64,000 nt of DNA from Naegleria gruberi (Eukaryota), in NCBI GenBank assembly GCA_000004985.1, contig GG738929.1. One strand, 5' to 3'. The translations under genes were made by a program, and so were the position numbers. Of the stretch, positions 9,801-47,203 are shown piece after piece. How positions within the stretch are numbered: position 1 is the first letter of the stretch; every line of letters starts with the position of its first letter. The notes beneath the pieces were generated by a model, which was not told where the DNA came from, made no database searches, and saw only the letters and a program-made list of their open reading frames with translations.

Positions 9801-12800
9801 NNNNNNNNNNNNNNNNNNNNNNNNNNNNNNNNNNNNNNNNNNNNNNNNNNNNNNNNNNNNNNNNNNNNNNNNNNNNNNNNNNNNNNNNNNNNNNNNNNNN
9901 NNNNNNNNNNNNNNNNNNNNNNNNNNNNNNNNNNNNNNNNNNNNNNNNNNNNNNNNNNNNNNNNNNNNNNNNNNNNNNNNNNNNNNNNNNNNNNNNNNNN
10001 NNNNNNNNNNNNNNNNNNNNNNNNNNNNNNNNNNNNNNNNNNNNNNNNNNNNNNNNNNNNNNNNNNNNNNNNNNNNNNNNNNNNNNNNNNNNNNNNNNNN
10101 NNNNNNNNNNNNNNNNNNNNNNNNNNNNNNNNNNNNNNNNNNNNNNNNNNNNNNNNNNNNNNNNNNNNNNNNNNNNNNNNNNNNNNNNNNNNNNNNNNNN
10201 NNNNNNNNNNNNNNNNNNNNNNNNNNNNNNNNNNNNNNNNNNNNNNNNNNNNNNNNNNNNNNNNNNNNNNNNNNNNNNNNNNNNNNNNNNNNNNNNNNNN
10301 NNNNNNNNNNNNNNNNNNNNNNNNNNNNNNNNNNNNNNNNNNNNNNNNNNNNNNNNNNNNNNNNNNNNNNNNNNNNNNNNNNNNNNNNNNNNNNNNNNNN
10401 NNNNNNNNNNNNNNNNNNNNNNNNNNNNNNNNNNNNNNNNNNNNNNNNNNNNNNNNNNNNNNNNNNNNNNNNNNNNNNNNNNNNNNNNNNNNNNNNNNNN
10501 NNNNNNNNNNNNNNNNNNNNNNNNNNNNNNNNNNNNNNNNNNNNNNNNNNNNNNNNNNNNNNNNNNNNNNNNNNNNNNNNNNNNNNNNNNNNNNNNNNNN
10601 NNNNNNNNNNNNNNNNNNNNNNNNNNNNNNNNNNNNNNNNNNNNNNNNNNNNNNNNNNNNNNNNNNNNNNNNNNNNNNNNNNNNNNNNNNNNNNNNNNNN
10701 NNNNNNNNNNNNNNNNNNNNNNNNNNNNNNNNNNNNNNNNNNNNNNNNNNNNNNNNNNNNNNNNNNNNNNNNNNNNNNNNNNNNNNNNNNNNNNNNNNNN
10801 NNNNNNNNNNNNNNNNNNNNNNNNNNNNNNNNNNNNNNNNNNNNNNNNNNNNNNNNNNNNNNNNNNNNNNNNNNNNNNNNNNNNNNNNNNNNNNNNNNNN
10901 NNNNNNNNNNNNNNNNNNNNNNNNNNNNNNNNNNNNNNNNNNNNNNNNNNNNNNNNNNNNNNNNNNNNNNNNNNNNNNNNNNNNNNNNNNNNNNNNNNNN
11001 NNNNNNNNNNNNNNNNNNNNNNNNNNNNNNNNNNNNNNNNNNNNNNNNNNNNNNNNNNNNNNNNNNNNNNNNNNNNNNNNNNNNNNNNNNNNNNNNNNNN
11101 NNNNNNNNNNNNNNNNNNNNNNNNNNNNNNNNNNNNNNNNNNNNNNNNNNNNNNNNNNNNNNNNNNNNNNNNNNNNNNNNNNNNNNNNNNNNNNNNNNNN
11201 NNNNNNNNNNNNNNNNNNNNNNNNNNNNNNNNNNNNNNNNNNNNNNNNNNNNNNNNNNNNNNNNNNNNNNNNNNNNNNNNNNNNNNNNNNNNNNNNNNNN
11301 NNNNNNNNNNNNNNNNNNNNNNNNNNNNNNNNNNNNNNNNNNNNNNNNNNNNNNNNNNNNNNNNNNNNNNNNNNNNNNNNNNNNNNNNNNNNNNNNNNNN
11401 NNNNNNNNNNNNNNNNNNNNNNNNNNNNNNNNNNNNNNNNNNNNNNNNNNNNNNNNNNNNNNNNNNNNNNNNNNNNNNNNNNNNNNNNNNNNNNNNNNNN
11501 NNNNNNNNNNNNNNNNNNNNNNNNNNNNNNNNNNNNNNNNNNNNNNNNNNNNNNNNNNNNNNNNNNNNNNNNNNNNNNNNNNNNNNNNNNNNNNNNNNNN
11601 NNNNNNNNNNNNNNNNNNNNNNNNNNNNNNNNNNNNNNNNNNNNNNNNNNNNNNNNNNNNNNNNNNNNNNNNNNNNNNNNNNNNNNNNNNNNNNNNNNNN
11701 NNNNNNNNNNNNNNNNNNNNNNNNNNNNNNNNNNNNNNNNNNNNNNNNNNNNNNNNNNNNNNNNNNNNNNNNNNNNNNNNNNNNNNNNNNNNNNNNNNNN
11801 NNNNNNNNNNNNNNNNNNNNNNNNNNNNNNNNNNNNNNNNNNNNNNNNNNNNNNNNNNNNNNNNNNNNNNNNNNNNNNNNNNNNNNNNNNNNNNNNNNNN
11901 NNNNNNNNNNNNNNNNNNNNNNNNNNNNNNNNNNNNNNNNNNNNNNNNNNNNNNNNNNNNNNNNNNNNNNNNNNNNNNNNNNNNNNNNNNNNNNNNNNNN
12001 NNNNNNNNNNNNNNNNNNNNNNNNNNNNNNNNNNNNNNNNNNNNNNNNNNNNNNNNNNNNNNNNNNNNNNNNNNNNNNNNNNNNNNNNNNNNNNNNNNNN
12101 NNNNNNNNNNNNNNNNNNNNNNNNNNNNNNNNNNNNNNNNNNNNNNNNNNNNNNNNNNNNNNNNNNNNNNNNNNNNNNNNNNNNNNNNNNNNNNNNNNNN
12201 NNNNNNNNNNNNNNNNNNNNNNNNNNNNNNNNNNNNNNNNNNNNNNNNNNNNNNNNNNNNNNNNNNNNNNNNNNNNNNNNNNNNNNNNNNNNNNNNNNNN
12301 NNNNNNNNNNNNNNNNNNNNNNNNNNNNNNNNNNNNNNNNNNNNNNNNNNNNNNNNNNNNNNNNNNNNNNNNNNNNNNNNNNNNNNNNNNNNNNNNNNNN
12401 NNNNNNNNNNNNNNNNNNNNNNNNNNNNNNNNNNNNNNNNNNNNNNNNNNNNNNNNNNNNNNNNNNNNNNNNNNNNNNNNNNNNNNNNNNNNNNNNNNNN
12501 NNNNNNNNNNNNNNNNNNNNNNNNNNNNNNNNNNNNNNNNNNNNNNNNNNNNNNNNNNNNNNNNNNNNNNNNNNNNNNNNNNNNNNNNNNNNNNNNNNNN
12601 NNNNNNNNNNNNNNNNNNNNNNNNNNNNNNNNNNNNNNNNNNNNNNNNNNNNNNNNNNNNNNNNNNNNNNNNNNNNNNNNNNNNNNNNNNNNNNNNNNNN
12701 NNNNNNNNNNNNNNNNNNNNNNNNNNNNNNNNNNNNNNNNNNNNNNNNNNNNNNNNNNNNNNNNNNNNNNNNNNNNNNNNNNNNNNNNNNNNNNNNNNNN

Positions 12801-31141: not shown

Positions 31142-31725
31142 NNNNNNNNNNNNNNNNNNNNNNNNNNNNNNNNNNNNNNNNNNNNNNNNNNNNNNNNNNN
31201 NNNNNNNNNNNNNNNNNNNNNNNNNNNNNNNNNNNNNNNNNNNNNNNNNNNNNNNNNNNNNNNNNNNNNNNNNNNNNNNNNNNNNNNNNNNNNNNNNNNN
31301 NNNNNNNNNNNNNNNNNNNNNNNNNNNNNNNNNNNNNNNNNNNNNNNNNNNNNNNNNNNNNNNNNNNNNNNNNNNNNNNNNNNNNNNNNNNNNNNNNNNN
31401 NNNNNNNNNNNNNNNNNNNNNNNNNNNNNNNNNNNNNNNNNNNNNNNNNNNNNNNNNNNNNNNNNNNNNNNNNNNNNNNNNNNNNNNNNNNNNNNNNNNN
31501 NNNNNNNNNNNNNNNNNNNNNNNNNNNNNNNNNNNNNNNNNNNNNNNNNNNNNNNNNNNNNNNNNNNNNNNNNNNNNNNNNNNNNNNNNNNNNNNNNNNN
31601 NNNNNNNNNNNNNNNNNNNNNNNNNNNNNNNNNNNNNNNNNNNNNNNNNNNNNNNNNNNNNNNNNNNNNNNNNNNNNNNNNNNNNNNNNNNNNNNNNNNN
31701 NNNNNNNNNNNNNNNNNNNNNNNNN
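31142..31725. other. Assembly gap (584 N)
   Basis: Run of n characters. The + strand ORF 31082-31864 across it is an artefact. Confidence 0.99.
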
Positions 31726-32693: not shown

Positions 32694-33988
32694 CTGAATT
32701 TTTTTAATTATTTACAATTTTAAATGTGAAAAATGTTAGACAGGTGGTAGAGCATTAACAAGACTCCAAAAGATTAGAAGGAAACAATCGGTAAGTTTCG
32801 TTTAAGCCATCATCAGTTTCATCTAACTAAATTTATTGTAACACTGTAATGTCAATCATTAAGACTCCATTAATAGGTTTCTACCAGTTGGTAAATTAGG
32901 AACAACCATGTTGCTACTAGCAATTGAAATCTTGTCAAGTTCTGCTTGATAGGTATTTGCATAGGAACGTAAATTTGTGAACACAGTATCAAGGGTTGTT
33001 GTTGTCAATACTATATTATGCAGGTGGGGGTATGTTCAGTATTTTGTTGTTCTCAAAAGCCACAAAAAAAATTTACAAGTCCAATAAAAAACATATTTTG
33101 CAAATATCAGGTCTTTTACTTTGTGGAAGAACACAAAAAATGACAAATAAAACTCAATGGATGATACTCTCTTTTTATTCATCTTTTCGATTTGTTTTTA
33201 ATGAGAAAATTGATTTTGAGGTGTTTTGCAAGATTTATTCACTTATTTTACACCAACAACAAAACCAAAAATGCAATCAATAAAAAATATTGTGATTTTT
33301 TGGCAATCAATTTTTGGCTGGATTTTGTTCATGTTATTAAAGCTGTGCACTACTACATAAAATTGAGACCAGGTAGAAGTACACACAATACATCAAATCG
33401 TTCTAGTTGATCTCTAGAATTTGATTTTAGGTTGCGTGAGATTCTAGTATCTATAGTTTTGGAATTTGAATTGTTTTTAAGAAAAAAGAATCATCTTGGC
33501 CCAGTTTCTTGCTGAAGGTGAGTTTGGAAAACTGAGAGCAGTTGGATGAAGAGAGAATACACTAACATACGCAATACTGGGTCTAGTTTTCAAAAATCTT
33601 GTCGTCATGATTCTAGTATATCCCCTTTACATCGAACTCAACACTCGTATATGATTTTCTCAATATATACACAATAAAATCAATATGTCACAAGGCAATA
33701 ATATAGATGCACATAAATATTAGTAAATTTGAAATATTTACTGGTTTTTGTTGTTTATTGGTTGAGCTATTGAATTTTACCATTAATTTTCGCTAGCGGC
33801 AAGTCAACATTCCCCTCCCTTGATATTATTTGAGTTGAATAAATTCTGTAGTCACCTTACATGATTTAGCATAGACCATACGATTAGTTTTTTCTGTTCA
33901 TTTGCAGCCGGAATATCTTTTTTTATTATATTTTGAAAGGTTTGCTTTTGGAGCTGACACCCTAATATTAATCAACAACTCAATTTTC

Positions 33989-36900
33989 ATGAATAAGTCG
34001 TCATCTAAAAAAATGGAACAAGCCACCAGTTCTGAACCCACAGCAAACAAACAGTTTCGTGCTTACGTTACACAGCAAATATCTTCAATTCCAACAGCAT
34101 CACCAACATGTGCCAACTTTGCTGAACAACAAGATGTAGAAGAAGATCATGACTATCACACAAATGTCAACATTTATTGCCCTCATTGTAAATCATTTTT
34201 CTGTGAAAACTGTCATTCGTTATGTGTTTATTCTTCCTTGGAATCCAACAGTAAAATTCCCATGTCAAAAAAGAAAACAGTACAGGCCGAACATTTAAAA
34301 CATCAGTGGAATATCAATGAGGATTATCAACAAAATATCCAACAAGATGTGATGCAATTATTCATCGTTACGAACAATCTGGTTAGTATGATACAACGAT
34401 GGACAAATGACACAACTAACGTCAATCTACAGGACATTATTGACCAATACGAATTATTTAAAACAGCCACAAGCAAACATATCATCACTCCCTATTTCAA
34501 TAGAACATTTTTAGAACCGCTGACCCCTATTTGTGAAAAAATTTCTATTTTCCACAAAGCACAAGAACAGGTCAACAAATTCTCTGAAATGTTTAAAAAA
34601 TACAATAACAAAGCTCTTGATATAATGGATAGCTTTACTTTGGCTTCCACTGAAATGCGATCATTTTGTAAATCATACCTTAAGATTTCTAATGACAAAA
34701 TGGAGGAATATTTATCTCTAGCAAACACAGCAGAAAAGCTTAAATGGAATGCCATTAATTCCAAAAATCCAATGAAGTGTTGTGTTGTGGGAATTACTAA
34801 TTCTGGTAAAACTACTTTAATGAATGCAATTCTTGGAATGAACCTTTTGCCAAGTAAGGAAGGGAGATGTACAATTGCTAATACAGAATTAAGATATGCA
34901 GATTATGATAAACGTAAAATTGAAATCAAGGAAGAACATGGTACTTTCAACACACTTTCTCAATTTACTTCAGAGTATCTGATGCAACATGAATCAATTC
35001 CTGAAGAAGTTGTATCTACTTTTGGTGTTTCTGAAAAAACCAAATCAGAACAGAAGAAGGATAGAGAATCTCAAAAAACTATAAGAGTTCATTGGGATTC
35101 TCTCTTGTTAAAAACAGGAATAGCCTTTAGTGATACACCTGGATATGATGATATTTATGAAGAGGAAGTTTTATTCAACACTTACAAAAGACAATCAAAG
35201 AAAAAAGCTTTGCCTAAAAATGTAATGGTCAACCCTCAAACATTAGAATTTATTCAAGAATCTGAACTTGTTATTCTAGTAGTTGATATTAATCACACAT
35301 ATACTTCCAAAGATGCTGTTCTAAACTTGTTGGACATTGATGAATTAAAAGGCAAACAAATCATGGTTGTGATGAATAAGTGTAACATGTTTGGAAGTAT
35401 TGGAAAACGTGAAGACAGAGGTTGGGAAAGTTTCATTCACTATTGTGAAGAATATGAAAATACAAAAACTGCATCATCACCTCCATTATTATTACAATTT
35501 TACAAAATGGTAAACAATACTCATGAAAAAGCTAGAACAACATTTGAAGCATGTCTGCTTAATCATATTGATATGATGAGTACAAAAGGTATTTCTGTAA
35601 ACCAAATATATCCATTATCTGCTATGGAATCCCTTTGTTGTAAAGTAGAAGGAACTGAATTGGATTTGCCGTTCACTCTATTTGAAAAAGCACTATTTAA
35701 TATTATGGAAGATATTACAAAGAAGCGTATGTCTAATTTTGCTTCTGTTGCACACTTTTCAGTCAATACATTCCTGAGATCAACTTTGCTATGCAAAAAT
35801 TGGCATGTAAAGATGTATCAAATGCAACTCGAAAAGAAAAAACAACTGGAGGACATATCAAGTCTTGTTGAAAAGTTCAGAGAACGAATTCAACAAATTA
35901 TTCAAGATTTAAGGCAGGACATTATTGAAGTTTTTGAGAGAACATCGAGTCAAAGTAGTTCCAAGAAAATTGAAGAAGCCATGCATATTATTCACACAAA
36001 AGTTTCTGTTGAATTTAAAGAATTCTTGAAGGAACGTATTGCACAAGATCCCAAGTTATCTGTTTCAGATTGGGCCTACATAATTTCCATAACAATATTT
36101 GCAATTCCTATTTCAATAATTTTGCTTGGTATTGCGGTTCTATTAGTCCCAGTGTTGATGCCTATCATGTTTCCATATGTAATGGTAAAAACAATTTTGG
36201 ACATGGTAACAGATTTAAAAAAGAAAAAGAAGAGCAATATTATTGATGAACTAGTTTATAAAAGTGAGAGAATTCAAGTAAGTGAGGAAGAATCAGATAG
36301 TGCTGAAAACGATACTGATGACGTTCCAGAAGTACTCTCCACAACATTATTGGCTCTTGATTCACAAAATCTAGATGTAAATCAAGTCATCCAAAAGATA
36401 ATGCAGAGTTATCCTGATATGTTTTGTCTAGAAATTGAAAAGCATCTAATATCTAAAGTTGAAAATGAGTACAACGACAAACTGAAAACATTTAACTTTG
36501 TACTTTGTAAAGATGGGAAAGAATTAGCATTTTTTAATGCCTGGAAAGAGTTTCAAAAAGATCAGAATGGATGTGAACAGCTTTACAATTACTATTGCAA
36601 GACTTCATCTTTGTTTTTTGATATTAACACAAAATTTTCACTTTCAAATTTGAAATCTTTTGAATTTTGTGGACACGGAGCATTTGGTAAAACCTATCGT
36701 TTAAATAATATTACTGCAATCAAGTATATTTCTACAATTAAGCTTGCTGAACATATTTTAGATAGAGAACTATTTTATAATTCACAACTTTCACATGCAC
36801 ATATTGTTAAAAGCATGCTAATTAAAAAGGAAGAAACTGAAAACGCTTTAAACGGTTACATTTATCAAGAGTATCTCCCACAAACTCTTTCACAATGGGC

Positions 36901-37483
36901 TCTGAACAAACCAATTAACTATAAGAAAGCTCTTAGATATGCTTGTGAAATAGCACTTGGTATGAAATATATTCAATCTTGTAATATCATGCATAGAGAT
37001 TTAGACAAGTCAAACATTATGATTGACAAATTTGATCATATCAAAATTATTGATCTAGGTGTAGCAAAAGAAATGGTTGATAATGCACACACAGCAAATC
37101 AAGGAAAATATAAAACAATGGCACCAGAAGTAAAACGCTCTGGATCTGACTTTGCAATTTATGATTTTAGATGTGACGTTTATTCCTTCGGAATAGTGGT
37201 TAAAGAATTGCTTGATGGTTATGACAGTAGTGAAATTTCATTATTATTAGAGAGATGTTTGGAGAAAGATTTTAAGAATAGAATTGGTGATTGGAATGAA
37301 ATAATATTTACTTTATATAAGAGTTATGAGATGTATGAATTAGATGTGGAACCAACTGAATATTCTAACCAATTGAAAATTGAGGTACAGGAAGTTCAAG
37401 AAGAATCACAAATTGATATTGAGGTATTGAAAAAGGAATTGAAAGATAAGAAAATCATACCAAAAAATTGCATTGTGCAATAA
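33989..37483 (+). CDS. Multidomain protein: C4-type zinc finger, dynamin-superfamily-like GTPase, coiled coil, hydrophobic hairpin (about 38 aa), Ser/Thr protein kinase
   Basis: The likely true start is ATG at 33989 (MNKSSSKKMEQ...); the 29 codons upstream in the track ORF are low-complexity. Zinc-finger-like motif: CPHCKSFFCENCHSLC. GTPase: P-loop VVGITNSGKTTLMNAILGMNLLPSKEGRCT (dynamin/mitofusin-like G1 and switch I), G3 DTPG, G4 NKCN. Hydrophobic hairpin: WAYIISITIFAIPISIILLGIAVLLVPVLMPIMFPYVMV. Kinase: GHGAFGKTY glycine loop, AIK lysine, HRDLDKSN catalytic loop, DLG, APE, DVYSFG. Single uninterrupted ORF of 1164 aa. Confidence 0.75.
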   Translation: MNKSSSKKMEQATSSEPTANKQFRAYVTQQISSIPTASPTCANFAEQQDVEEDHDYHTNVNIYCPHCKSFFCENCHSLCVYSSLESNSKIPMSKKKTVQAEHLKHQWNINEDYQQNIQQDVMQLFIVTNNLVSMIQRWTNDTTNVNLQDIIDQYELFKTATSKHIITPYFNRTFLEPLTPICEKISIFHKAQEQVNKFSEMFKKYNNKALDIMDSFTLASTEMRSFCKSYLKISNDKMEEYLSLANTAEKLKWNAINSKNPMKCCVVGITNSGKTTLMNAILGMNLLPSKEGRCTIANTELRYADYDKRKIEIKEEHGTFNTLSQFTSEYLMQHESIPEEVVSTFGVSEKTKSEQKKDRESQKTIRVHWDSLLLKTGIAFSDTPGYDDIYEEEVLFNTYKRQSKKKALPKNVMVNPQTLEFIQESELVILVVDINHTYTSKDAVLNLLDIDELKGKQIMVVMNKCNMFGSIGKREDRGWESFIHYCEEYENTKTASSPPLLLQFYKMVNNTHEKARTTFEACLLNHIDMMSTKGISVNQIYPLSAMESLCCKVEGTELDLPFTLFEKALFNIMEDITKKRMSNFASVAHFSVNTFLRSTLLCKNWHVKMYQMQLEKKKQLEDISSLVEKFRERIQQIIQDLRQDIIEVFERTSSQSSSKKIEEAMHIIHTKVSVEFKEFLKERIAQDPKLSVSDWAYIISITIFAIPISIILLGIAVLLVPVLMPIMFPYVMVKTILDMVTDLKKKKKSNIIDELVYKSERIQVSEEESDSAENDTDDVPEVLSTTLLALDSQNLDVNQVIQKIMQSYPDMFCLEIEKHLISKVENEYNDKLKTFNFVLCKDGKELAFFNAWKEFQKDQNGCEQLYNYYCKTSSLFFDINTKFSLSNLKSFEFCGHGAFGKTYRLNNITAIKYISTIKLAEHILDRELFYNSQLSHAHIVKSMLIKKEETENALNGYIYQEYLPQTLSQWALNKPINYKKALRYACEIALGMKYIQSCNIMHRDLDKSNIMIDKFDHIKIIDLGVAKEMVDNAHTANQGKYKTMAPEVKRSGSDFAIYDFRCDVYSFGIVVKELLDGYDSSEISLLLERCLEKDFKNRIGDWNEIIFTLYKSYEMYELDVEPTEYSNQLKIEVQEVQEESQIDIEVLKKELKDKKIIPKNCIVQ

Positions 37484-40400
37484 TTATAAAAATTGTTCCA
37501 ACGAATTGTTTATTACAAAAAAAATGAAAGAAATCATAACCATTGTCCATTCATATTGGCTATTTGACTCTTTCATGCTTCTATCAAGCCATTATCACCA
37601 ACAAATCCCTTTTCTTTAGATCCAGCCACTGGAATGAATTGATTAGTTTTTGGGTGATCCTTCTAATTCGAATATTATTTGTTGTAAGGTTGCTTTAAAA
37701 CTATTCGCTCCTCAGTTTCATGATTCCATCATGTTGGGGAATGTCATGTCTTTGCTAAATTCAAATCATCTGGAAATACTTCAACATTTGACTCAAGTTT
37801 GTATTGTTATAACAATACAGATTGTGAAAATGTTGTGGTGGTGTTGAACTTTCCTATCCAAATAGTGGTCCATCGTATGTTAAATATACCAACCAGACAT
37901 GTCTTCCACAATGTTCCAAAGCTATAAACGTGTCCAAAGTGTTCTCAGAAAAAAGATGCTACCTTCTGTACTTGTACCAGATTGTTTAATCAATGATGAT
38001 TGTATTGAAAGTGGTTCATCATAGGGTAGAAGTGAATGTATCAATCAAGTTTGTTCTGTTAAAACTTGTGCATCCAATAGTGATCGTTACAGCTGATTGT
38101 TGAACAAATTCTTCATTTTCTGAATAAATCAATTGATTTCCATATTCTCCCAAGTGGATATCAGTGTATAATATTTTTGTGGATGTTCTAGAAATATGTT
38201 ATCACATCCTAACAAGATCAAGAAGTCAGATAATGATGGAGGATATGAGGAAGTGTTTAATCTTAAGCTTGGAGAGTGATGTGTCTTATAGTTTGATTTC
38301 AATTTTTAAAACTGTATTTCTTCAGTGAACATACACTGAATTTGACCAACAGCAAGTGGAATCAATTAAATAATTTCGTTCATCAGAGTCATGTATTTAG
38401 GATGATATTTGTCATATCTGTCCACAAAGAATTTGGTAACATTTTCATTGGAAAATGAGGCAGCAATTGGAGAGTTACATGAAAGAATTTCAATTCACCT
38501 CTCTTTGTGATAGATTCTAAATTTTGAACCTTTTCAATATAAATATCCATCAAGAGAGCTAGCAAAATACAGAATGCCATGATATTGAGAATGAGAATAG
38601 TCACAACTAGACATTTAGTGTTGGACATAGAAACTGAACCACAACATGTATTCACCTCAATACCTCCAATTCCATCTCGCATTGGAACGCTTTATAATAG
38701 GTTATTGTTGCTGCGGGATTCGAAGAATGAGTAGGTGAAAAGGATGATGCTTTGGAAATTCTTGTTAATATCCATAAAAAGGAGGATTATAACTCTGGCT
38801 TATTCGAACTGAAGTTGAGAAAGGATACTCAAACCAATGACGAAGCAAAACATTGGCTTGTTTGATTCTCATTTGTTGTGTTGTTTGATGGTCTTGCCAG
38901 TTGTTAGTTCATTGGTGGCCTCGTTCAATAGAGAAAAGCAAGAACGTTGGCAAATTGGAAGAGCTAAAGTAATTGTCTGAATGATACAATGGCAGATCTA
39001 AAACTTAAGGAACTTTTCAAAAAGTTTAGTATAGAGAACTTCCTCATCTATATGCAGAATATATGCAATATTGTATTGGAAAGAGAATGACATTTCACCA
39101 ACTCCACTTAAAATGATATCTCCTGAGTGTACTGCTTGATGTTGAAATGAAGCTTAGTGTAATTCAGGTGGTTGAGCATATCACAGAGACAAAATAAATC
39201 TTAATCTTACAACAATACTAGTAACTGGTTTGTGTTAAATGTTGGTATAAAGGTAGAATTAATTGTTTTTAGGATTGATTGGAGATATTTCACTTTGACT
39301 GGTAGATTTTGGAATGAGATAATCTTGTTTGTACAGTAATGTTTACGTGGTGCTGTTTTAATATCTTCATCATAGTAACAAAAACATTTACCAGTAGCTA
39401 AATTTGAAGGTTCCAACATTTTGGAACAATTATGTTTCAAGCTAACATCATTATTGGATTTGTGCCATAATTGTAGGTTGAAACTTTTCCCAAACTACTC
39501 TTGATGGTTGGTGGAGTAATTTAATAACAATATCAACAACAACCTTGAAACAACAATCCAATAACAATTATTACGATTTTCACGAATAGATTCAAAAATG
39601 TTTAAACCTAGAGTGTCGAGTAATCACATATGGACTCTTACCGGTGAACTCTCATCATAATCTTCTTACAATAAATGTAAGGTTTGGTGATGTTGTGAAT
39701 GATGTTTCGTAGTTGTGTTGATGTGGTTGATGTAGTTGGTCTCATCATATTTTTGAATAAGAGGTTGCTGGTATTTTTTTTTAAAATAATAAAATAAATA
39801 ATTAAAATTGAACTAAAGAACTTTCAAATCCATTGATTCAGAGGAACACCAAGGGGAGAGTGAAGTAATATTGAGTGTAATTTTCTAATCAACCACCTTC
39901 TGGTTATTATATTTAAGAAATGCTGTTTGTTGCAATTCTTTGGTCTGCACCGATTTCTTCGTACGTTCAATACAGTTCCTAATTTATAAATTCCTAATTT
40001 ATTTAATTCCTTAAAAATAATTTGCGAATGTATCCAATAAAATATAAGTTTTCGTAATTGTATCGAAAGTTGCATTGTGCTATATCCTGGAGCAAGGACT
40101 TTAAATTCATTTGCTTATCTCTATGATGCAAAGTATTTTTAACAAAAAATGTATTACAACGAAGGTTTATTTTCTGACACAACGAAATCATGATTTCAAC
40201 CTCTTGATTTTTGCAGGTGTCCTTATTACATAAATTAACACGATTTGAGAATAGGTATTTTTCTATTTTTACTCATATCTCAAGAACGAAAGTTAGCCAT
40301 TCACTTCTCACCTCATGATGACATTAACAAGGGAAGGTTTTAAAGGTTTCGTATTTTCAAATGTTGGAGTTTATGTAATTTTAGAGGATTTGAGGATAAC

Positions 40401-41112
40401 TACTTCACAAAATCGAATAATTACAAGATGATTAACATATCAACGAGTGTTATAATGTGTTCCAATCGATAAATATTTTAAAAACATTGTCTTCGGCTCT
40501 GAGAGTACCCATTAGCTTAAATTATATATAACAAGAAGCACTCTCTTAAATTTTAATCAATATTAATAAAATTCATGTGTTGTTAGAACTGTTACTGATT
40601 GTGTGAATCATAATGTTGTGTATTTATTTTAAAAACATATATCAACTTGGAACCGTTCAGTGAAATCTCAACATTTACGCCTGGCCAATACCAACTTTCC
40701 GCCCTGGGAACACCTCAACAGTGTTAGTCTTGTTATTAATTGTGAATCCTTTTGTTAGCAAAATATCGTTCTCTTTTTTCAATTCTTCTGCAAATAGAGT
40801 TATTTCTTTCTCTTCTCCCTCCCATATTGCTAATGGTGTTGTTATCTTTCTTAACTGACCACTCCCAAAAAAATTTACTATTAATAACTGTCATAACCAG
40901 ATTGTTAAATTTGTTTTTGAAGCAGCATCTAAATTAAGACAAATAATAAAATCAGAAATGTCATTTACAAATTTTGAACAATGACAACATTCTTTAGACT
41001 TGGCATTTGATTCTCATGCTCAATCATCCATATTTGGTGGACTTATCACCAATATCCTCCCTTACATCTATCTCACAATGTTTATGTTTCTTACAATAAT
41101 GTTATTACATAG

Positions 41113-43141
41113 TTGTATACATGGCTGGTTCAGTTAAAATCCCAACTAATCCCCTCGCAACAATTTTCCTTTTACGAAAAAGGAACAATGCTGATTCCTC
41201 ACGAAAAGAAAGAAGTTGCACTCAACCTTATTCAAGATTTTCTCCAATCTCGAAAATTCGTTCGAATCAAACTGGTAGCTCAATTTATAGGAAAGCTGGA
41301 ATTCGCCTCTTTAGCAGAACAATACATAATGCCTCTGTTAAACAGATTACGAGTTTCAGTAGTAGGATGGTCAGTCTTTATGCTCATCAACAGAGGCCCC
41401 ATGACGGACCTAATAAGATTAAAGTCCATCATTTCAAACTCAAAAGGTTCTCTCCTAGATCTAAATCAACCTTTCCCAATTATAATCAATTCAGATGCTT
41501 CTCCTCAAGGATAAGGTGTCCACTCCTCAAACACTGTTATTATAGGAAGATTTCACACCCACGATCATATCAATTCGAAAGAAATGATGGCAATTCTTCA
41601 ATTCTTCATCGAAGCAAAATCACAAAAGCTCTTCCCAAGAGGAACCTATTTCGAGATAAGGTGGACAATTCAACTGCCTTCTCATACATAAGAAAAGGAT
41701 ATGGAACTTTCGAACACCTCGCTCAAATAGCAAGAAAAATTTGGAAAATTCTAATAGAATGTTGCTGGAGAATTGCAAAAGTAATTTACATTCCCTCAGA
41801 GAAAAATTCAATTGCAAACAAATTAAGCCTTTTAAGCGATTGGAAATCATCACCAGAATTGATAAATATGGTAGAAAAAGAATTCGGAAACCACACCATA
41901 GACAGATTTGCAACATCAGAGTCAGCAACAACGATCCATTTCAACTCTTTGTTAGAAAACGATGCGTTTCAAGAACTTTGGGAACAAAACTCAATCAATT
42001 ATTGTGTTCCTCCAATAGGTCTAATCCCACAAGCTCTATTTCACTTGATCCGATCAAAGGCCATAGGAACATTCGTAGTTCCTTATTGGCCAACAGCTTA
42101 CTGGTTCCCGATCTTGCTAAAGATATCTTTAGAACAGATACGTGTTCCGCTCCAATGGCTTATAACAGAGCATTACAACGAACTGCACAAACAATCAGAC
42201 AATATTTCGTTCATGGCGGTCAAAGTGAATGGAATGCTCAACTTTCAATGAGATGTCAGGCTTTATCTACTGCTCTTGCAGAATCGACAAAGTATTCAGA
42301 ATTTTCTTATTTCTGTCTACTCCATAATTTAGACAAATCAGATGTTAGAGCCCCAGAATTATTCGCTTGCTATCTTGCGGTTCACAAGAAGCTCTACAGA
42401 TTGAATAGTTTGAAACCTACGTTGGATTTCTATTCAAATTTGGAAGGATGGTCCGTAAATTATTCTAATCAATTCTTTAGAATCAAACAAGGTTTGAATA
42501 AGTTTTATTCACGAGCCGATATTGTTAAACATAAGAGAAGTGGAATCTCTGCTCTCAATGTCAAGCAATTCATTGATAGGATCTCTATTAAAGACCCTTA
42601 TCTTCACATGTTGTCTTGTGCCATACTTTCCGTTGGCATTAGATTATTAGCAAGACCTGGTCAACTGGCTAATTTATCATGGTCTTGTGTTAAACTTGAT
42701 ACTCCTTTTATCGGTTGGGTTACTTTTGATCTTTCTGGTCACAAAACAGACCAATTATCTGACATGAAGAAACTCCTATTGAACCATAAAGAGGAAATAA
42801 GAAATACTGTCCAGTTTATAACCTTAGAAGATATGGATTATGTTAAACATATTAAGGAAGACGATTCTCCATTATTTTCGTTACTGTTTGATGAATATTT
42901 CACTCCTACTCAAATTTCTAATATTATTTCAAGCCCCATGAGCTCTATTGGTGTTCAAAACACTTCAGGCCATAGCCTTCGTATAAGTGCAGCTACTAAG
43001 CTGGCTTCTAAGGGTGTGTCTCAATCTATGATTGAGACAGCTGGTAATTGGGTGCCTAATTCAAAAATTAGATTGAGATATCAACGTAGAATTGGCCTAG
43101 CTACTCATGGTTTAACTACTTCTATTATGAGAACTGATTAA
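41113..43141 (+). mobile_element. Remnant (3' half) of a DIRS-like tyrosine-recombinase retrotransposon: RNase H and YR domains spread over three reading frames, so a pseudogene
   Basis: In frame 1 the ORF ends ...IIINSDASPQG (RNase H DAS motif). In frame 3 it continues ...VDNSTAFSYIRKG...IPSEKNSIANKLS (RNase H TDN / IPGxxNxxAD.LS motifs). In frame 2 there is a C-terminal tyrosine recombinase: GIRLLARPGQLANLS (Arg box), GHKTD (Lys), HSLRISAATKLASKG (H-x-x-R), GNW, RLRY (nucleophile Tyr). At least two frameshifts separate these pieces, and no RT or gag ORF is detectable upstream. Confidence 0.6.
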
Positions 43142-43222
43142 ATATATACTTTTATTATTTTCTAGGGACTAATCCATTTGTCTTAATTTAATATTTTATT
43201 ATTTTGTGGTTTTAAAAACATT

Positions 43223-43875
43223 TATATATTGCGTAACCGCTCCAAGTAATTTTTACACACAATGAATTTTTTATAGATTTTGAGCAAATAAAGTCTTGAA
43301 AATAGTTGATAAGGTAGAAAACTTCTATCACCCTGTGTGTTAAGGCAACGTAGTATTTTACTGTCATATACCTAGGATTCTCCAAAAATCCAATACTTAT
43401 TTATTTTTAATACAGGGCATAATATGACAGTAAAACAACCATATTCGAGAGTAGTTGTGATAAGAACTCTTTCATGAATAAAAAAGTACCTGTAAAAAAT
43501 TGTAAAGTCCTGTAAAATAATTACAATTGGTGGTTTTTCACAAGTAAAAAAATGCCTTAACACCTACACCAGCACTAAGGTTTTAATAAATTCCAACTTG
43601 TAAATTTTTTCCAAGTCCAAATTGTGTTTCATACGACTAAGCGCATGTCTTGTCCACATTGACAAGCACAATTCAACAACAATAAACAATAAATTATTTA
43701 TTTATTAATTATTAGTAATTATTATTATCAGGTGATAACAATCTAGGCAGGCAGGAAGGTTTGATTGATGGCCTTATCAACAACTGTAACGACTGCCGTA
43801 ATAAAATGGTGAATAAGTAAATTCCAAAAACGATCAATGAATGTAAAAATCACTGGACCGGTTACGCAATATATA
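43223..43875. repeat. Nested inverted repeats forming a roughly 650-bp foldback module 3' of the YR element
   Basis: Outer inverted repeat: tatatattgcgtaaccg (43223-43239) against cggttacgcaatatata (43859-43875), 17/17 and extendable to about 30 nt imperfectly. Middle: gtgttaaggc (about 43337-43346) against gccttaacac (43554-43563). Inner: ttttactgtcatat (43356-43369) against atatgacagtaaaa (43422-43435). Confidence 0.7.
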
Positions 43876-43901
43876 CATCCGAAAAGGGGTCAAACTAAAT
43901 C

Positions 43902-43951
43902 NNNNNNNNNNNNNNNNNNNNNNNNNNNNNNNNNNNNNNNNNNNNNNNNNN
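43902..43951. other. Assembly gap (50 N)
   Basis: Run of n characters. Confidence 0.99.
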
Positions 43952-44009
43952 ACAAAGCAGAAGTTTGCCGATTCGTTCATAAGATTTAATTGAAAGACTT
44001 CATGTTAAT

Positions 44010-45029
44010 TTATCGATCTTTATGCTTTTCAAGATAGGCATTGGAAATTGCTTTGAAACTAAATTTACCATCCAATCTCTTGAATACTAAACCTTCTCTT
44101 TTGACATTCTTGTTCAAAGATGGCCCATCAGCCATTGCCAAAATCTGCTCTGCTGTATGATTCAATTCCAAATCATCCAAAATTGGGACATGTTTGACAG
44201 TGAATCCGTTATCATTCAATTGCTTCACCAATGATTGTCGTTCAATTGGTGTCAAATACTGAGCCTTATCAATATCATAAATATCAAACAAGTAAAAATC
44301 TTGACCTTTCAATTTTTCCAAATTTCCTTGAATTGATTCTCCAATAATTTCACCTTGTAGGGCCAAATTTCTATTTAAAAATTGTAATCCTTCAATCATT
44401 TTGTTTCTCCTAGCAGCATGCCATTGTGCATTAGTTGCAGTTTCTCTCAATTCCCAATTTCTTCCACATACACCAATATGGTCATCTTTCCTATATACAG
44501 TCATTGATGAGCCATCCAATTTCACAGTCACTTCAAATTTTTGACCCTTATTTTCTTCAATTTGTGGAATTAAGTTTTGTACACGTTCCTGATCTGTCTT
44601 ACTAATAAAAGTTGGAAATTCACCCAAAATTTCACCAGAAAGATTAGTGGAAATTGGTGGTTCCCACTTTGTAATTCCTAGAATTTCTGTAACATCATCA
44701 CCCACTTGATTGGAAGCCAATTCTGGGAATCTATCCATTGGCAAGAACAACCCTTGGCTCAATTGACCTCTCAACCTAGCAGTACGAAGACGAGTACCTC
44801 TTTGACCTTCATAATCAATAACTTGTTTTGAAAGCATTGGATACCTATCATTATCTTCCTTTATAAAACTATCAATTTCAAAATAGACTCCCCTATCACC
44901 TTGTTTAAATTCTCCCTTCTTGATCACACAAGTCCAACCATCAACATGGCAACATTCAATAGCTTCTGCACCTGCAATAGGAGTAATTTCTCCTGCAGTA
45001 CGAATAGTAGCAAGTTTACGTACACCCAT
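44010..45029 (-). CDS. ATP-dependent RNA ligase, Rnl5 / DraRnl-like family (339 aa); probable orthologue of Naegleria gruberi NgrRnl
   Basis: ATG at 45029-45027; the track start at 45053 is a TTG. Covalent nucleotidyltransferase motif I KLDGSS, with Lys at residue 170 counted from the ATG. Motif IV/V-like EGLVFKR. A distinct N-terminal domain precedes the NTase domain. Length and active-site lysine position match what I recall for NgrRnl (339 aa, K170). Intronless. Confidence 0.8.
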   Translation of the reverse strand: MGVRKLATIRTAGEITPIAGAEAIECCHVDGWTCVIKKGEFKQGDRGVYFEIDSFIKEDNDRYPMLSKQVIDYEGQRGTRLRTARLRGQLSQGLFLPMDRFPELASNQVGDDVTEILGITKWEPPISTNLSGEILGEFPTFISKTDQERVQNLIPQIEENKGQKFEVTVKLDGSSMTVYRKDDHIGVCGRNWELRETATNAQWHAARRNKMIEGLQFLNRNLALQGEIIGESIQGNLEKLKGQDFYLFDIYDIDKAQYLTPIERQSLVKQLNDNGFTVKHVPILDDLELNHTAEQILAMADGPSLNKNVKREGLVFKRLDGKFSFKAISNAYLEKHKDR

Positions 45030-45288
45030 AGTGTTATTATTATTATTTAACAATTATTAAAATAAATAATATTATTGGATAATATTATCTCCGGTCTCTT
45101 AGAGTTTTTAAAAGCAAATTGAAAATAAATTCCTTCTTGCTGATGGATTTTTTTTTAAGTTTGAAAATAAAAATGTTCCAAGTTCTCCTGAAATCAGTTA
45201 AATTGAATTTGTGTTTCTCCTTGAAATTGCACTGTAGCTCTAAGAGAGCATATATTACAATGTTAATGTGAGTTCATCAATATATTCT

Positions 45289-46668
45289 TTATTCTTTCTT
45301 TGATTCATCGAAACGAATTTGTGAAATAGTGCACTCGTAGGTATCCTTATTGATTTGGGATTTTGTTGAGGTTTCATAGGAGAGAAACCAAAAGTTTCTT
45401 CCAAAAGTTGTTGTAAGGTTGACGATTCTTGTGAGTGTGGTATCTTCTTTTTGATAGCTAATTTCAAATTCATAAAATAATCTGGATCCAGAAATATTGG
45501 TTGTTGAAACAGTTAGTGATGGATTGAATCTTTCACGTTTCTTGACAGGACTAATAATCATGACATTCTTAAGTGTGGAAGTGAGATGATTTAAATGTTG
45601 ATTTGAAAGATCTTCTAATGATTTGAATTGATCATTGGTAATTTGTTCCACAATAATTTGATCAATAGCTGATTTTTTGATATGAACTGGAGAATAGAGA
45701 TAGCTCAATTCAGAATAGTCCTTTTCCTGATAGACCCAACCAAATGGGTGTCTCAACCACAGAGAATCAGCAATGTCACAGTATAGAGAGGTGAATAGAG
45801 TGGATTCTTTTGGAGGCATTGATTTGAAAACACATTCTTCCAATGATGACTCATAAGGACTAGCACAATTAGACAAGTAAGAATAGGTCAGTATGGAATT
45901 GTGTCCAATTAAAATTGCATACATCTTTCCAGTAACAGCCACCTTTAGCTCCTTTCCCTTATTCTTCAAAGTAATAAATCCTGTAAATCCATTCAACATT
46001 TCAAATGACTTGGAATTATTGTTAATTGTCTTCCATGAAGACCCCTTCTTGAACTTTGTCATGGTTGATTCCAAATGAGTTTCGCATGCTTCCCTCACAT
46101 CAGTTGCCTCCGTTCCAGAGTAGGTTATGAGCTCCACTCTAATTCTATCAACAAATGCTGGATTTTCCAAGAAAGTTTCCAAAGGAGTAACAATATCCAA
46201 CAAGTGATCTTCCAATTTAAACTCAGTCCAACGATCCTTATTACTTAATTGTCTTGGAGATGCATTCTTTGATAGTGTCTTATCTACTTCAATTCCAATC
46301 TCAGTTCTTGACATTGGATATTTAATAATTCCTAACAGCCATGAATTTCTAGTACATTTAAAGAATACTTCTCTATCTTTAAATGAGCTAGGAATGGAAG
46401 TTTTTTGAATGTTTGGTCTAGGATAACATTTCAATGTACAAGAAATGAGTAAAAATCCTTTTTCTATATTTTGTAAAGGCAATTCCATAATTTCTCCATT
46501 GAAATTTGAAATTTCACTCAATTTGAGAATATAATCACCTTCAAAGTCATCGGAAATCATATCTTTATCCATTACTCTAAAATTAATACCTTCATTTGAA
46601 TTTTCAATTAGTGGAATTTGTATTGTTTCATTCCAAATTGGATCAAGAGTTTTTGGTTTGACTTTTGA
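45289..46668 (-). CDS. C2-domain protein, exon 2 (459 codons plus stop)
   Basis: This is the frame of track ORF 45289-46572, extended upstream to the acceptor at 46668 with no stop. It carries the second half of the C2 domain followed by a roughly 400-aa region with no recognised domain. Confidence 0.6.
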   Translation of the reverse strand, partial: SKVKPKTLDPIWNETIQIPLIENSNEGINFRVMDKDMISDDFEGDYILKLSEISNFNGEIMELPLQNIEKGFLLISCTLKCYPRPNIQKTSIPSSFKDREVFFKCTRNSWLLGIIKYPMSRTEIGIEVDKTLSKNASPRQLSNKDRWTEFKLEDHLLDIVTPLETFLENPAFVDRIRVELITYSGTEATDVREACETHLESTMTKFKKGSSWKTINNNSKSFEMLNGFTGFITLKNKGKELKVAVTGKMYAILIGHNSILTYSYLSNCASPYESSLEECVFKSMPPKESTLFTSLYCDIADSLWLRHPFGWVYQEKDYSELSYLYSPVHIKKSAIDQIIVEQITNDQFKSLEDLSNQHLNHLTSTLKNVMIISPVKKRERFNPSLTVSTTNISGSRLFYEFEISYQKEDTTLTRIVNLTTTFGRNFWFLSYETSTKSQINKDTYECTISQIRFDESKKE

Positions 46669-46705
46669 CTTGTGGGAAAAACCAGGATATGTTGTTAAAA
46701 CATAC
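46669..46705 (-). other. Spliceosomal intron (37 nt) in the C2-domain gene
   Basis: gtatgttttaacaacatatcctggtttttcccacaag. GTATGT donor and CAG-type acceptor. Removing it eliminates the in-frame TGA and fuses the two ORFs in frame, restoring the C2 fold. Confidence 0.6.
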
Positions 46706-46879
46706 TGTAAAAGTGTTATTACGAATAAGAAAATTTAAAGTAAAACCCACTGGATCAGAGAGATTATTTCTATCTTTCGGAACTAGATCTTTGGCACCCA
46801 TCAAGGTTATTGTGAGAACATCTTGAAGATTTAAAAAATCGCCAAATACTTTGGTAAGACTTGGTGATGATGGTTCCAT
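46706..46879 (-). CDS. C2-domain protein, exon 1 (58 codons)
   Basis: ATG at 46879. The exon ends ...NNTFT with a complete codon, immediately followed by GTATGT. Joined to exon 2, the product is a canonical C2 domain (LTITLMGAKDLVPKDRNNLSDPVGFT...SKVKPKTLDPIWNETIQIPL...INFRVMDKDMISDDFEGDYIL). Confidence 0.6.
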
Positions 46880-47203
46880 AGTAGTGGTGGTTTAGTAGTG
46901 AATCGGTTGGATGAATTTTTTTCTTGAAAGTTTCGAATACATAATACATTAGAATGGTGATGAAGAAGGGCGCTTTTAGAACATTAAAGAACAGAACAAG
47001 TAAGATCTTAACAACAATCAATTTCTGGCATATTCACCATTCAGTGTCAGAAAACGTGTTGTCAACAATTCAACATTCGATTGGTACTCACTGGTGGAAG
47101 TCTGTTATACAACCATTAATGTCTATCAACGACAAAAAACAACCTTATTATCTTTGATTTTAAAATCTTTCAAAATAGCATTCGTAAATATATTTATTTA
47201 CAA

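What the first reader, a model, noticed from the sequence alone, without database searches (positions are those of the whole stretch)
41113..43141. Frameshifted DIRS-like tyrosine-recombinase retroelement remnant
RNase H motifs (DAS..., ...TDN-like VDNSTAFSYIRKG, IPSEKNSIANKLS) and a full tyrosine-recombinase catalytic set (R...K...HxxR...W...Y in GIRLLARPG / GHKTD / HSLRISAATKLASKG / GNW / RLRY) lie in three different frames in the order RNase H then YR. That order is diagnostic of DIRS/Ngaro-type retrotransposons rather than integrase-bearing LTR elements. No RT or gag is recognisable in the 3 kb upstream, so the copy is 5'-degraded or truncated. YR retroelements are sparsely catalogued outside a few lineages, so this copy, and any intact relatives elsewhere in the genome, are worth characterising.
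Basis: partly seen in the sequence, partly recalled or inferred. Interest (0 to 1): 0.5.

Follow-up and report, generated by a model that had tools for sequence, protein, structure and literature searches.

The report
Dead DIRS-type retrotransposon fragment in Naegleria
This is a broken, 5'-truncated copy of a tyrosine-recombinase (DIRS-type) retrotransposon in the amoeba Naegleria gruberi, a kind of mobile element already reported from this species, so it is real but ordinary.

Summary
Window 41122-43141 (+) encodes the C-terminal two thirds of a DIRS-type pol: the tail of RT, RNase H and a Dam/PCIF1-like "MT" domain. A tyrosine recombinase (YR) follows it. tblastn E-values reach 1e-78 and 1e-87 against intact relatives that carry RVT_1. 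The host is Naegleria gruberi, because the neighbouring ORF is the NgrRnl RNA ligase.

A copy with intact gag and pol from the same family (L010, identical over 200 aa to an N. gruberi predicted protein) is 97% identical in DNA. Homology to it stops sharply at 41122, so gag and the RT core are absent.

The pol-to-YR switch is the native ATGA stop/start overlap, which four relatives share. Real lesions are:
- the 5' truncation;
- a TAA stop at 41512;
- a 1-nt deletion near 41660;
- a compensating frameshift pair in the YR (about 42764 and 42841);
- several in-frame deletions.

Substitutions are spread evenly over codon positions, which fits neutral decay.

The MT-like domain places the element in the DIRS1/PAT group, not Ngaro or VIPER. 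The termini could not be defined, so DIRS1-like versus PAT-like stays open. DIRS1-like elements in N. gruberi were published in 2011. Interest is low.

The parts
41122..41511 (+). pol remnant, frame 3: tail of the RT domain (after YxDD), the connection region and the start of RNase H, including the DAS motif at 41494-41502. The 5' breakpoint lies at 41121/41122.
   Evidence: Aligns to L002 pol residues 277 onward. DNA homology to the intact same-family copy L010 begins exactly here, at L010 position 1738. It carries in-frame deletions of 3, 18, 9 and 18 nt relative to L010.
41512..41514 (+). Premature TAA stop inside the RNase H DAS..G(Y)G motif.
   Evidence: L010 has GYG where the window has G*G.
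41515..41661 (+). RNase H continues in frame 3 (INSKEMMAI, with the catalytic E region). It ends at a 1-nt deletion at about 41659-41662.
   Evidence: Frameshift-aware alignment. A 1-nt deletion relative to L010 at window ~41659.
41661..42251 (+). pol remnant, frame 2: RNase H C-terminus (VDN..., IPSEKNSIANKLS with D-to-N at the ADxLSR aspartate), then the methyltransferase-like domain (IDRFATSES, NYCVPPIGL, VVPYWPTAYW). The pol stop TGA is at 42249-42251.
   Evidence: tblastn to P0001 residues 383-596, 59% identity, E = 9.5e-78. Pfam Dam PF05869 E = 1.6e-4 at conceptual-protein residues 217-276 (my conversion: window 41838-42017), below the gathering score. The same Dam match recurs in relatives.
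42248..43141 (+). Tyrosine recombinase ORF, frame 1. Its ATG at 42248 overlaps the pol stop (ATGA). The catalytic R (42641-42661), K (42734-42751), HxxR (42968-42997), W (43040-43051) and Y (43070-43090) are all present. The ORF is damaged by a frameshift pair.
   Evidence: 50% identity to P0003 and related YRs over the full length, E = 1e-87. Pfam Phage_integrase E = 6e-5. The family profile matches the Cre H289-Y324 region at E = 0.002. The same ATGA overlap is seen in L002, L003, L005 and L010.
42764..42841 (+). Stretch of the YR read out of its ancestral frame: a +2 shift at ~42764, a stop at 42787 in the ancestral frame, and a +1 shift at ~42841. The shifts sum to 3 nt, so the visible ORF stays open.
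   Evidence: Frameshift-aware alignment to P0003 and P0004 recovers ETPIEP*RGNKKYCPVYNLRRY against the consensus DPTPIEPYKGDKKYCPSFILKRY.
42288..42293 (+). Site of an 18-nt in-frame deletion near the YR N-terminus (STVKKYSSTYSEF becomes STKYSEF).
   Evidence: Alignment to L010 and P0002.
43142..43901 (+). 3' flank up to the assembly gap. The true 3' end of the element is undefined. The flank contains a 46-nt inverted pair, 43220-43265 and 43834-43878, that may or may not belong to the element.
   Evidence: establish the repeat. No similarity to the contig ends of relatives.

Best explanation
Window 41122-43141 is a dead, 5'-truncated copy of a DIRS-order (tyrosine-recombinase) retrotransposon of Naegleria gruberi. 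It belongs to the branch whose pol carries RT, RNase H and a Dam/PCIF1-like methyltransferase-like domain, that is, the DIRS1/PAT group.

How the parent element is built (shown): it is about 4.1-4.3 kb and encodes gag, pol (RT/RH/MT) and a YR whose ATG overlaps the pol stop codon as ATGA.

The ATGA overlap suggests that YR translation is coupled to pol termination; this is also inferred.

State of this copy (shown): it lacks gag and the RT fingers and palm. It also has a premature stop, a 1-nt frameshift in RNase H, a D-to-N change at an RNase H aspartate, in-frame deletions, and about 26 out-of-frame codons in the YR. It therefore cannot make RT or a normal YR and is decaying neutrally.

How the 5' part was lost is unknown. 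A later deletion or rearrangement is the likeliest cause.
For: Host: ORF 44010-45053(-) is NgrRnl, PDB 5cot, E = 1e-231.

Homology: pol remnant to P0001 at 9.5e-78 and 1.1e-41; YR to P0003-P0005 at 1e-87 to 1e-94.

Architecture in intact relatives:
- L002: pol 668 aa with RVT_1, then a 302-aa YR.
- L005 and L006: gag, pol, YR.
- L010: gag, pol, and the start of the YR.

Domains:
- RVT_1 at 1e-19 to 1e-24.
- Dam at 7e-6 to 6e-4, always at the same position.
- Phage_integrase up to 2.7e-11.
- Many more distant relatives are precomputed as RVT_1 + PF05869.
- The family pol profile matches Ty3 RT/RNase H (4ol8) over profile positions 50-483 at E = 3e-47.
- The YR profile matches the Cre catalytic C-terminus.

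Same-family copy L010:
- 97.0% nt identity over 1616 aligned bases.
- Its YR-frame translation is 200/200 identical to the N. gruberi predicted protein P0002.
- Homology ends sharply at 41122.

No RT core or gag: the pol HMM hits only 41100-42248 (HMM positions 253-643). The gag HMM hits nothing across 28930-64000. tblastn at E up to 100 gives only noise upstream.

Lesions.

Neutral decay: differences by codon position are 10/11/13; dN/dS is 0.72 for pol and 0.45 for the YR.

Literature: DIRS1-like elements in N. gruberi, all corrupted by frameshifts or indels (PMC3266345).
Against: - Pfam matches of the window copy itself are all below gathering scores (Dam 21.8 vs 28.1 bits; Phage_integrase 23.3 vs 27.1; RVT_3 13 vs 21.6). 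Domain calls therefore rest on close relatives and profiles, not on the remnant alone.
- Terminal repeats, which define DIRS1-like versus PAT-like, could not be identified for this family.
- Five of the six indels relative to L010 are multiples of three. That is unexpected under pure neutral decay and suggests part of the divergence predates inactivation.
- The YR ORF is still open for 466 codons.
Confidence: 0.93

Rival explanations
1. The YR part is a host gene domesticated from the element (an exapted recombinase or DNA-binding protein), kept open by selection while the rest decays.
For: ORF 41741-43141 is open for 466 codons and all five catalytic-motif residues are present. dN/dS for the YR N-terminus is 0.45, below 1.
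Against: - About 26 codons between the K and HxxR motifs are read out of the ancestral frame, replacing a conserved block (PIEP...KYCP); the ancestral frame holds a stop.
- An 18-nt deletion lies near the N-terminus.
- Only 8 substitutions underlie the dN/dS value.
- The copy is only 3% diverged from a transposon copy.
- No distinct orthologue turned up: every other hit is 50% identical or less, and those whose contigs were fetched lie directly behind a pol (P0003/L003, P0004/L002, the P0007-type YR in L005).
Confidence: 0.03
2. The element is of the Ngaro or VIPER type (YR retrotransposons without a methyltransferase-like domain).
For: The RT/RH-then-YR order with little ORF overlap resembles Ngaro. 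Piednoel et al. state that Ngaro and VIPER do not usually have ORF overlaps.
Against: About 170 conserved residues lie between RNase H and the pol stop. They match Pfam Dam in the window and in every close relative tested. More distant relatives are RVT_1 + PF05869, and some also match PF12237 PCIF1_WW. Ngaro and VIPER lack this domain (PMC3266345).
Confidence: 0.02
3. A Crypton-type DNA transposon (YR only) lies by chance next to an unrelated RNase H-bearing retroelement fragment.
For: None beyond the fact that Cryptons also encode a YR.
Against: pol and YR share the same ATGA junction in the window and in four independent intact relatives with RVT_1. One contiguous 1.6-kb DNA alignment to L010 spans the junction.
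Confidence: 0.01
4. The apparent 5' truncation is an assembly artefact, and the gag/RT part exists at this locus in the real genome.
For: The scaffold has large gaps (837-28929, 31142-31725, 43902-43951).
Against: No N run lies near 41122. The nearest upstream gap is about 9.4 kb away. Between them lie a 3.6-kb ORF (33902-37483) and 3.6 kb of anonymous sequence.
Confidence: 0.02

Closest known systems
DIRS1-like retrotransposons (DIRS order; reference element DIRS-1 of Dictyostelium discoideum), including the N. gruberi sequences listed by Piednoel et al. 2011
   Same: gag, RT/RH/MT pol and YR. Catalytic domains run in the order RT, MT, YR. The RT/RH is closest to Ty3/gypsy. There is no DDE integrase. 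The host species has already been reported to carry such elements, all corrupted by frameshifts or indels.
   Different: ITRs and internal complementary regions, the defining termini, could not be shown. The pol/YR overlap is only 4 nt rather than long. Related Naegleria-type elements are small (a 4,097-bp unit in L006), which is near the bottom of the sizes visible in Piednoel's Table 3 (3,974-6,283 bp), and that unit has no inverted repeats.
PAT-like elements (PAT of Panagrellus redivivus, kangaroo, TOC)
   Same: Also carry the MT-like domain and a YR downstream of pol. They are bounded by split direct repeats, which would collapse into a circular assembly as seen for relative L006.
   Different: No split direct repeats were demonstrated. 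Piednoel et al. assigned the N. gruberi sequences to DIRS1-like rather than PAT by TBLASTX E-value differences.
Ngaro / VIPER YR retrotransposons
   Same: RT/RH followed by a YR, with few ORF overlaps.
   Different: They lack the methyltransferase-like domain that is present here.
Crypton DNA transposons
   Same: They encode a related eukaryotic tyrosine recombinase.
   Different: They have no RT/RH. Here the YR is fused by an ATGA overlap to a pol ORF.

Membership tests
DIRS order (YR-encoding retrotransposons) | RT/RNase H pol and a tyrosine recombinase encoded by one element, co-oriented | tested here: met
   The window has RH, MT and YR contiguous. The intact relatives L002, L005, L006 and L010 have RVT_1 pol plus a YR on one contig.
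DIRS order (YR-encoding retrotransposons) | No DDE (rve) integrase | tested here: met
   Pfam scans of the window's conceptual proteins and of relatives list no rve. The recombinase matches Phage_integrase and Cre.
DIRS order (YR-encoding retrotransposons) | YR catalytic residues R...K...HxxR...W/H...Y | tested here: met
   ARPG, HKTD, GHSLRI, GNW and RY are conserved across 8 family members and present in the window. Function in this copy is probably lost because of the out-of-frame block.
DIRS1-like + PAT-like group | Methyltransferase-like (Dam/PCIF1-like) domain C-terminal to RNase H | tested here: met
   Pfam Dam at E = 1.6e-4 in the window and 7e-6 to 6e-4 in P0009, P0010 and P0013, at the same position. 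All are below the gathering score but recur. More distant relatives are precomputed as RVT_1 + PF05869.
DIRS1-like superfamily | Inverted terminal repeats plus two internal complementary regions upstream of the right ITR | tested here: inconclusive
   The 5' end is missing and the 3' end is undefined. A 46-nt inverted pair at 43220-43265 / 43834-43878 has ICR-like arm size and position, but its 568-nt spacer exceeds reported ITR lengths (66-316 bp). The N. fowleri copy L009 has a marginal ~35-nt inverted pair flanking it. Relative L006 shows no inverted repeats.
PAT-like superfamily | Split direct repeats (A1 ... B1 A2 B2) | tested here: inconclusive
   No direct repeats were found around the window copy or around L009. 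The circular assembly of L006-L008 is compatible with split direct repeats, tandem copies or circles.
Ngaro / VIPER | Absence of the MT domain | tested here: not met
   The MT-like domain is present.
Crypton | YR-only DNA transposon without RT/RH | tested here: not met
   The YR ATG overlaps the pol stop. A contiguous DNA alignment to L010 crosses the junction.
Ty3/gypsy LTR retrotransposons | LTRs, aspartic protease and rve integrase | tested here: not met
   The RT/RH is related (Ty3 4ol8, E = 3e-47), but there is no rve, no protease match and no flanking direct repeats.

The most novel reading that the evidence does not exclude
The Naegleria-type elements to which this remnant belongs could form a distinct compact lineage of the DIRS order. 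Its features would be a size of about 4.1-4.3 kb, an ATGA-coupled pol/YR, and no long ITRs. Such elements might persist as circles or tandem or split-repeat units, as the 4,097-bp circular assembly of relatives L006-L008 hints. In that case the 46-nt inverted pair downstream of the YR in the window would be its ICR/terminus structure. This would blur the DIRS1/PAT distinction, which rests on termini.
Probability: 0.12. Interest if true: 0.4.

Novelty: already known. Interest (0 to 1): 0.14.

Why it matters
It matters little on its own. The fragment is a pseudogenised transposon piece, useful mainly for repeat annotation of the N. gruberi genome. It should be masked rather than called as a gene; a sister copy was annotated as a "predicted protein" (P0002).

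Two minor points of value:
- A same-family copy with intact gag and pol exists (L010). It could seed a proper consensus for a family that the 2011 survey could not place in its phylogeny.
- The conserved ATGA pol/YR junction and the circularly assembling relatives give a starting point for defining the termini of heterolobosean DIRS elements.

Tried and rejected
- RT or gag upstream. tblastn with P0001, the L002 pol and the L001 gag against 37000-41700 at E up to 100 and word size 2 gave only noise. Family pol and gag HMMs against the six-frame translation of 28930-64000 hit nothing outside 41100-42248. Pfam on the ten longest stop-free stretches of 37484-41121 gave nothing credible. Rfam and TRF gave nothing relevant.
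- Terminal repeats. The repeat finder on 36500-47000 found no flanking direct or inverted repeats bracketing the element. Contig ends and junctions of relatives against the 3' flank gave only 8-17-nt noise. A search for a second hairpin (rICR against the right terminus) in the N. fowleri copy was not above shuffles.
- The metagenome scan for longer contigs returned a single 1,745-bp locus.
- The N. gruberi loci of P0002, P0006 and P0008 could not be fetched, because no gene with those exact products is on record.
- The supplements of Piednoel 2011 hold no N. gruberi coordinates or reference sequences, so no DIRS1-versus-PAT phylogeny with named references could be built.
- The run accession ERR1078381 is not mentioned in the paper library.
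- Self-comparison of the upstream 3.6 kb and the 3' flank against the whole window found only the 46-nt inverted pair and a small palindrome at 37782-37835.

Full report
**Source and setting.** The window is low-GC (about 33%) eukaryotic DNA with large assembly gaps (N runs at 837-28929, 31142-31725 and 43902-43951). The ORF at 44010-45053(-) matches the crystallised Naegleria gruberi RNA ligase NgrRnl over its whole length (5cot, E = 1e-231). The host is therefore N. gruberi. Upstream of the finding lies a 1,193-aa ORF (33902-37483) with dynamin-like GTPase and protein kinase domains. After it come 3.6 kb (37484-41121) without ORFs longer than 100 aa.

**Checking the observation.** Homology is overwhelming:
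- The pol-like part matches the 596-aa protein P0001 (Pfam RVT_1) at E = 9.5e-78 (residues 383-596) and 1.1e-41 (residues 204-400).
- The recombinase part matches the 302-353-aa proteins P0003-P0005 at 1e-87 to 1e-94.

**What intact relatives look like.** Contigs carrying these relatives show one architecture:
- L001 has a 368-aa gag-like ORF, then pol.
- L002 has a 668-aa pol, then a 302-aa YR.
- L005 and L006 have gag, pol and YR.
- L010 has gag, pol and the start of the YR.

Pfam gives RVT_1 (1e-19 to 1e-24). It also gives a recurrent sub-threshold Dam (PF05869) match in the C-terminal third of pol (7e-6 to 6e-4), and Phage_integrase for the YRs (up to 2.7e-11). More distant homologues are precomputed as RVT_1 + PF05869, and a few also match PCIF1_WW. 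That fits the published view that the DIRS1 MT domain is PCIF1-derived and probably inactive (PMC4738411). A profile of the family matches Ty3 RT/RNase H (4ol8) across profile positions 50-483 at E = 3e-47. This establishes the RNase H assignment by profile search. The YR profile matches the catalytic C-terminus of Cre (H289-Y324 region, E = 0.002).

In the window itself, Pfam gives Dam at 1.6e-4 (conceptual-protein residues 217-276; my conversion: window 41838-42017), RVT_3 at 0.096 and Phage_integrase at 6e-5. All three are below the gathering scores, so the domain calls lean on the relatives.

**A same-family copy.** L010 is a Logan contig from run ERR1078381. It carries a 353-aa gag, an intact 626-aa pol (P0011) and the first 169 codons of the YR. 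Its YR-frame translation is 200/200 identical to the N. gruberi predicted protein P0002, so it represents another N. gruberi copy. It aligns to window 41122-42737 with 97.0% identity over 1616 ungapped positions. Homology stops abruptly at window 41122, which corresponds to L010 position 1738. L010 positions 1-1737 (gag and the RT core through YIDD) have no counterpart anywhere in the sequenced part of the window. The break lies inside the RVT_1 domain: L002 pol residue 277, where RVT_1 spans 135-299.

**Lesions.** A frameshift-aware alignment and the DNA alignment to L010 give these:
- 5' truncation at 41122.
- In-frame deletions of 3, 18, 9 and 18 nt between 41135 and 41352.
- A TAA stop at 41512-41514, replacing the Y of DASPQGYG.
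- A 1-nt deletion at about 41659-41662. This is the only true frameshift in pol.
- D-to-N at the ADxLSR aspartate (IANKLS).
- An 18-nt deletion at about 42288-42293.
- In the YR, a +2 shift at about 42764 and a +1 shift at about 42841, with a stop at 42787 in the ancestral frame. About 26 codons between the K and HxxR motifs are misread, although the ORF stays open.

The change from the pol frame to the YR frame is not a lesion. The pol TGA (42249-42251) overlaps the YR ATG (42248-42250) as ATGA. L002, L003, L005 and L010 have the same 4-nt overlap.

Substitutions relative to L010 fall evenly on codon positions (10/11/13). dN/dS is 0.72 in pol and 0.45 in the YR N-terminus, the latter from 8 changes. 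This is as expected for a copy drifting without selection. Five of the six indels relative to L010 are multiples of three, so some divergence may predate inactivation.

**Classification.**
- RT/RH plus YR with no rve integrase places the element in the DIRS order.
- The MT-like domain excludes Ngaro and VIPER and leaves DIRS1-like or PAT-like, following the definitions in PMC3266345.
- The two differ in their termini: ITRs plus internal complementary regions for DIRS1-like, split direct repeats for PAT-like.
- I could not define termini for this family. The 5' end is missing here, L010 is cut at both ends, and the N. gruberi paralogue loci could not be fetched.

Hints point both ways:
- A 46-nt inverted pair (43220-43265 / 43834-43878, 85% complementary, never seen in 100 shuffles) starts 79 nt after the YR stop. 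Its arm size is ICR-like, but the 568-nt spacer is longer than any ITR reported.
- The N. fowleri copy L009 is flanked by a marginal ~35-nt inverted pair.
- The more distant relatives L006-L008 are exact circular permutations of a 4,097-bp unit without inverted repeats. That topology suits split direct repeats, tandem copies or circles.

**Mechanism.** For the parent element, I infer the standard DIRS cycle from the literature: transcription, reverse transcription, formation of a circular DNA, and YR-mediated recombination into the genome without target-site duplication. The conserved ATGA overlap suggests termination-reinitiation coupling of the YR to pol, which is inference. The copy in the window is non-functional, which is shown by the lesions. 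The cause of its 5' loss is unknown. A later deletion or rearrangement is the simplest reading, because YR elements are not expected to truncate the way LINEs do.

**Novelty.** Piednoel et al. 2011 screened the JGI N. gruberi genome. They reported 7 DIRS1-like sequences in 6 families, too corrupted for their phylogeny and assigned by TBLASTX. The N. lovaniensis genome paper lists 89 DIRS matches. The kind of element and its presence in this genus are therefore published. This copy lacks the RT core that their pipeline required, so it may not have been counted, but that does not make it new in kind.

**Verdict.** The finding is real and correctly interpreted, but it is an ordinary transposon pseudogene.

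Noticed in passing
window 43220-43265 and 43834-43878: A 46-nt inverted repeat pair, about 85% complementary and 568 nt apart, begins 79 nt after the YR stop and ends 23 nt before a 50-N gap. It is the only such pair in the window and is absent from 100 shuffles. It could be a DIRS1-type rICR/right terminus or a MITE-like unit.
   Followed up: partly
L006:1-4127, L007, L008 (Logan ERR2815209, ERR2815274, ERR2815266): Three contigs from three runs are 100% identical circular permutations of one 4,097-bp gag-pol-YR unit (pol about 47% identical to P0001). L006 has 30-nt identical ends. No inverted repeats of 18 nt or more were found in L006 or L007. Only about 137 nt separate the YR stop from the gag ATG. 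The unit could be a circle, a tandem array or a collapsed split direct repeat.
   Followed up: partly
window 42248-42251; L002:2813-2816; L003:1798-1801; L005:3061-3064; L010:2913-2916: The pol stop codon and the YR start codon overlap as ATGA in the window and in four relatives whose pols are 55-93% identical to it. This suggests conserved translational coupling.
   Followed up: partly
L009:8440-12667 (Naegleria fowleri VFQX01000017.1): A genomic N. fowleri copy has gag 8695-9801, pol 10001-11833 and a YR remnant 11834-12460. It is flanked by a ~35-nt inverted pair (8440-8474 / 12636-12667; score 38 against a shuffle maximum of 35).
   Followed up: partly
window 37484-41121: 3.6 kb with no ORF over 100 aa and no Pfam, Rfam, tandem-repeat or intra-window similarity, in a locus otherwise filled by long ORFs. 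It contains a small palindrome at 37782-37835. Its nature is unknown.
   Followed up: partly
window 33902-37483 (+): A 1,193-aa uninterrupted ORF combines a dynamin-family GTPase domain (residues 294-493) with a C-terminal protein kinase domain (residues 922-1106).
   Followed up: no
window 44010-45053 (-) and 45289-46572 (-): The NgrRnl RNA ligase gene (PDB 5cot) lies immediately downstream of the remnant. The next ORF (427 aa) has no Pfam match.
   Followed up: no
window 837-28929: A 28-kb run of N occupies nearly half of the window, so only 28930-64000 and 1-836 could be examined.
   Followed up: no
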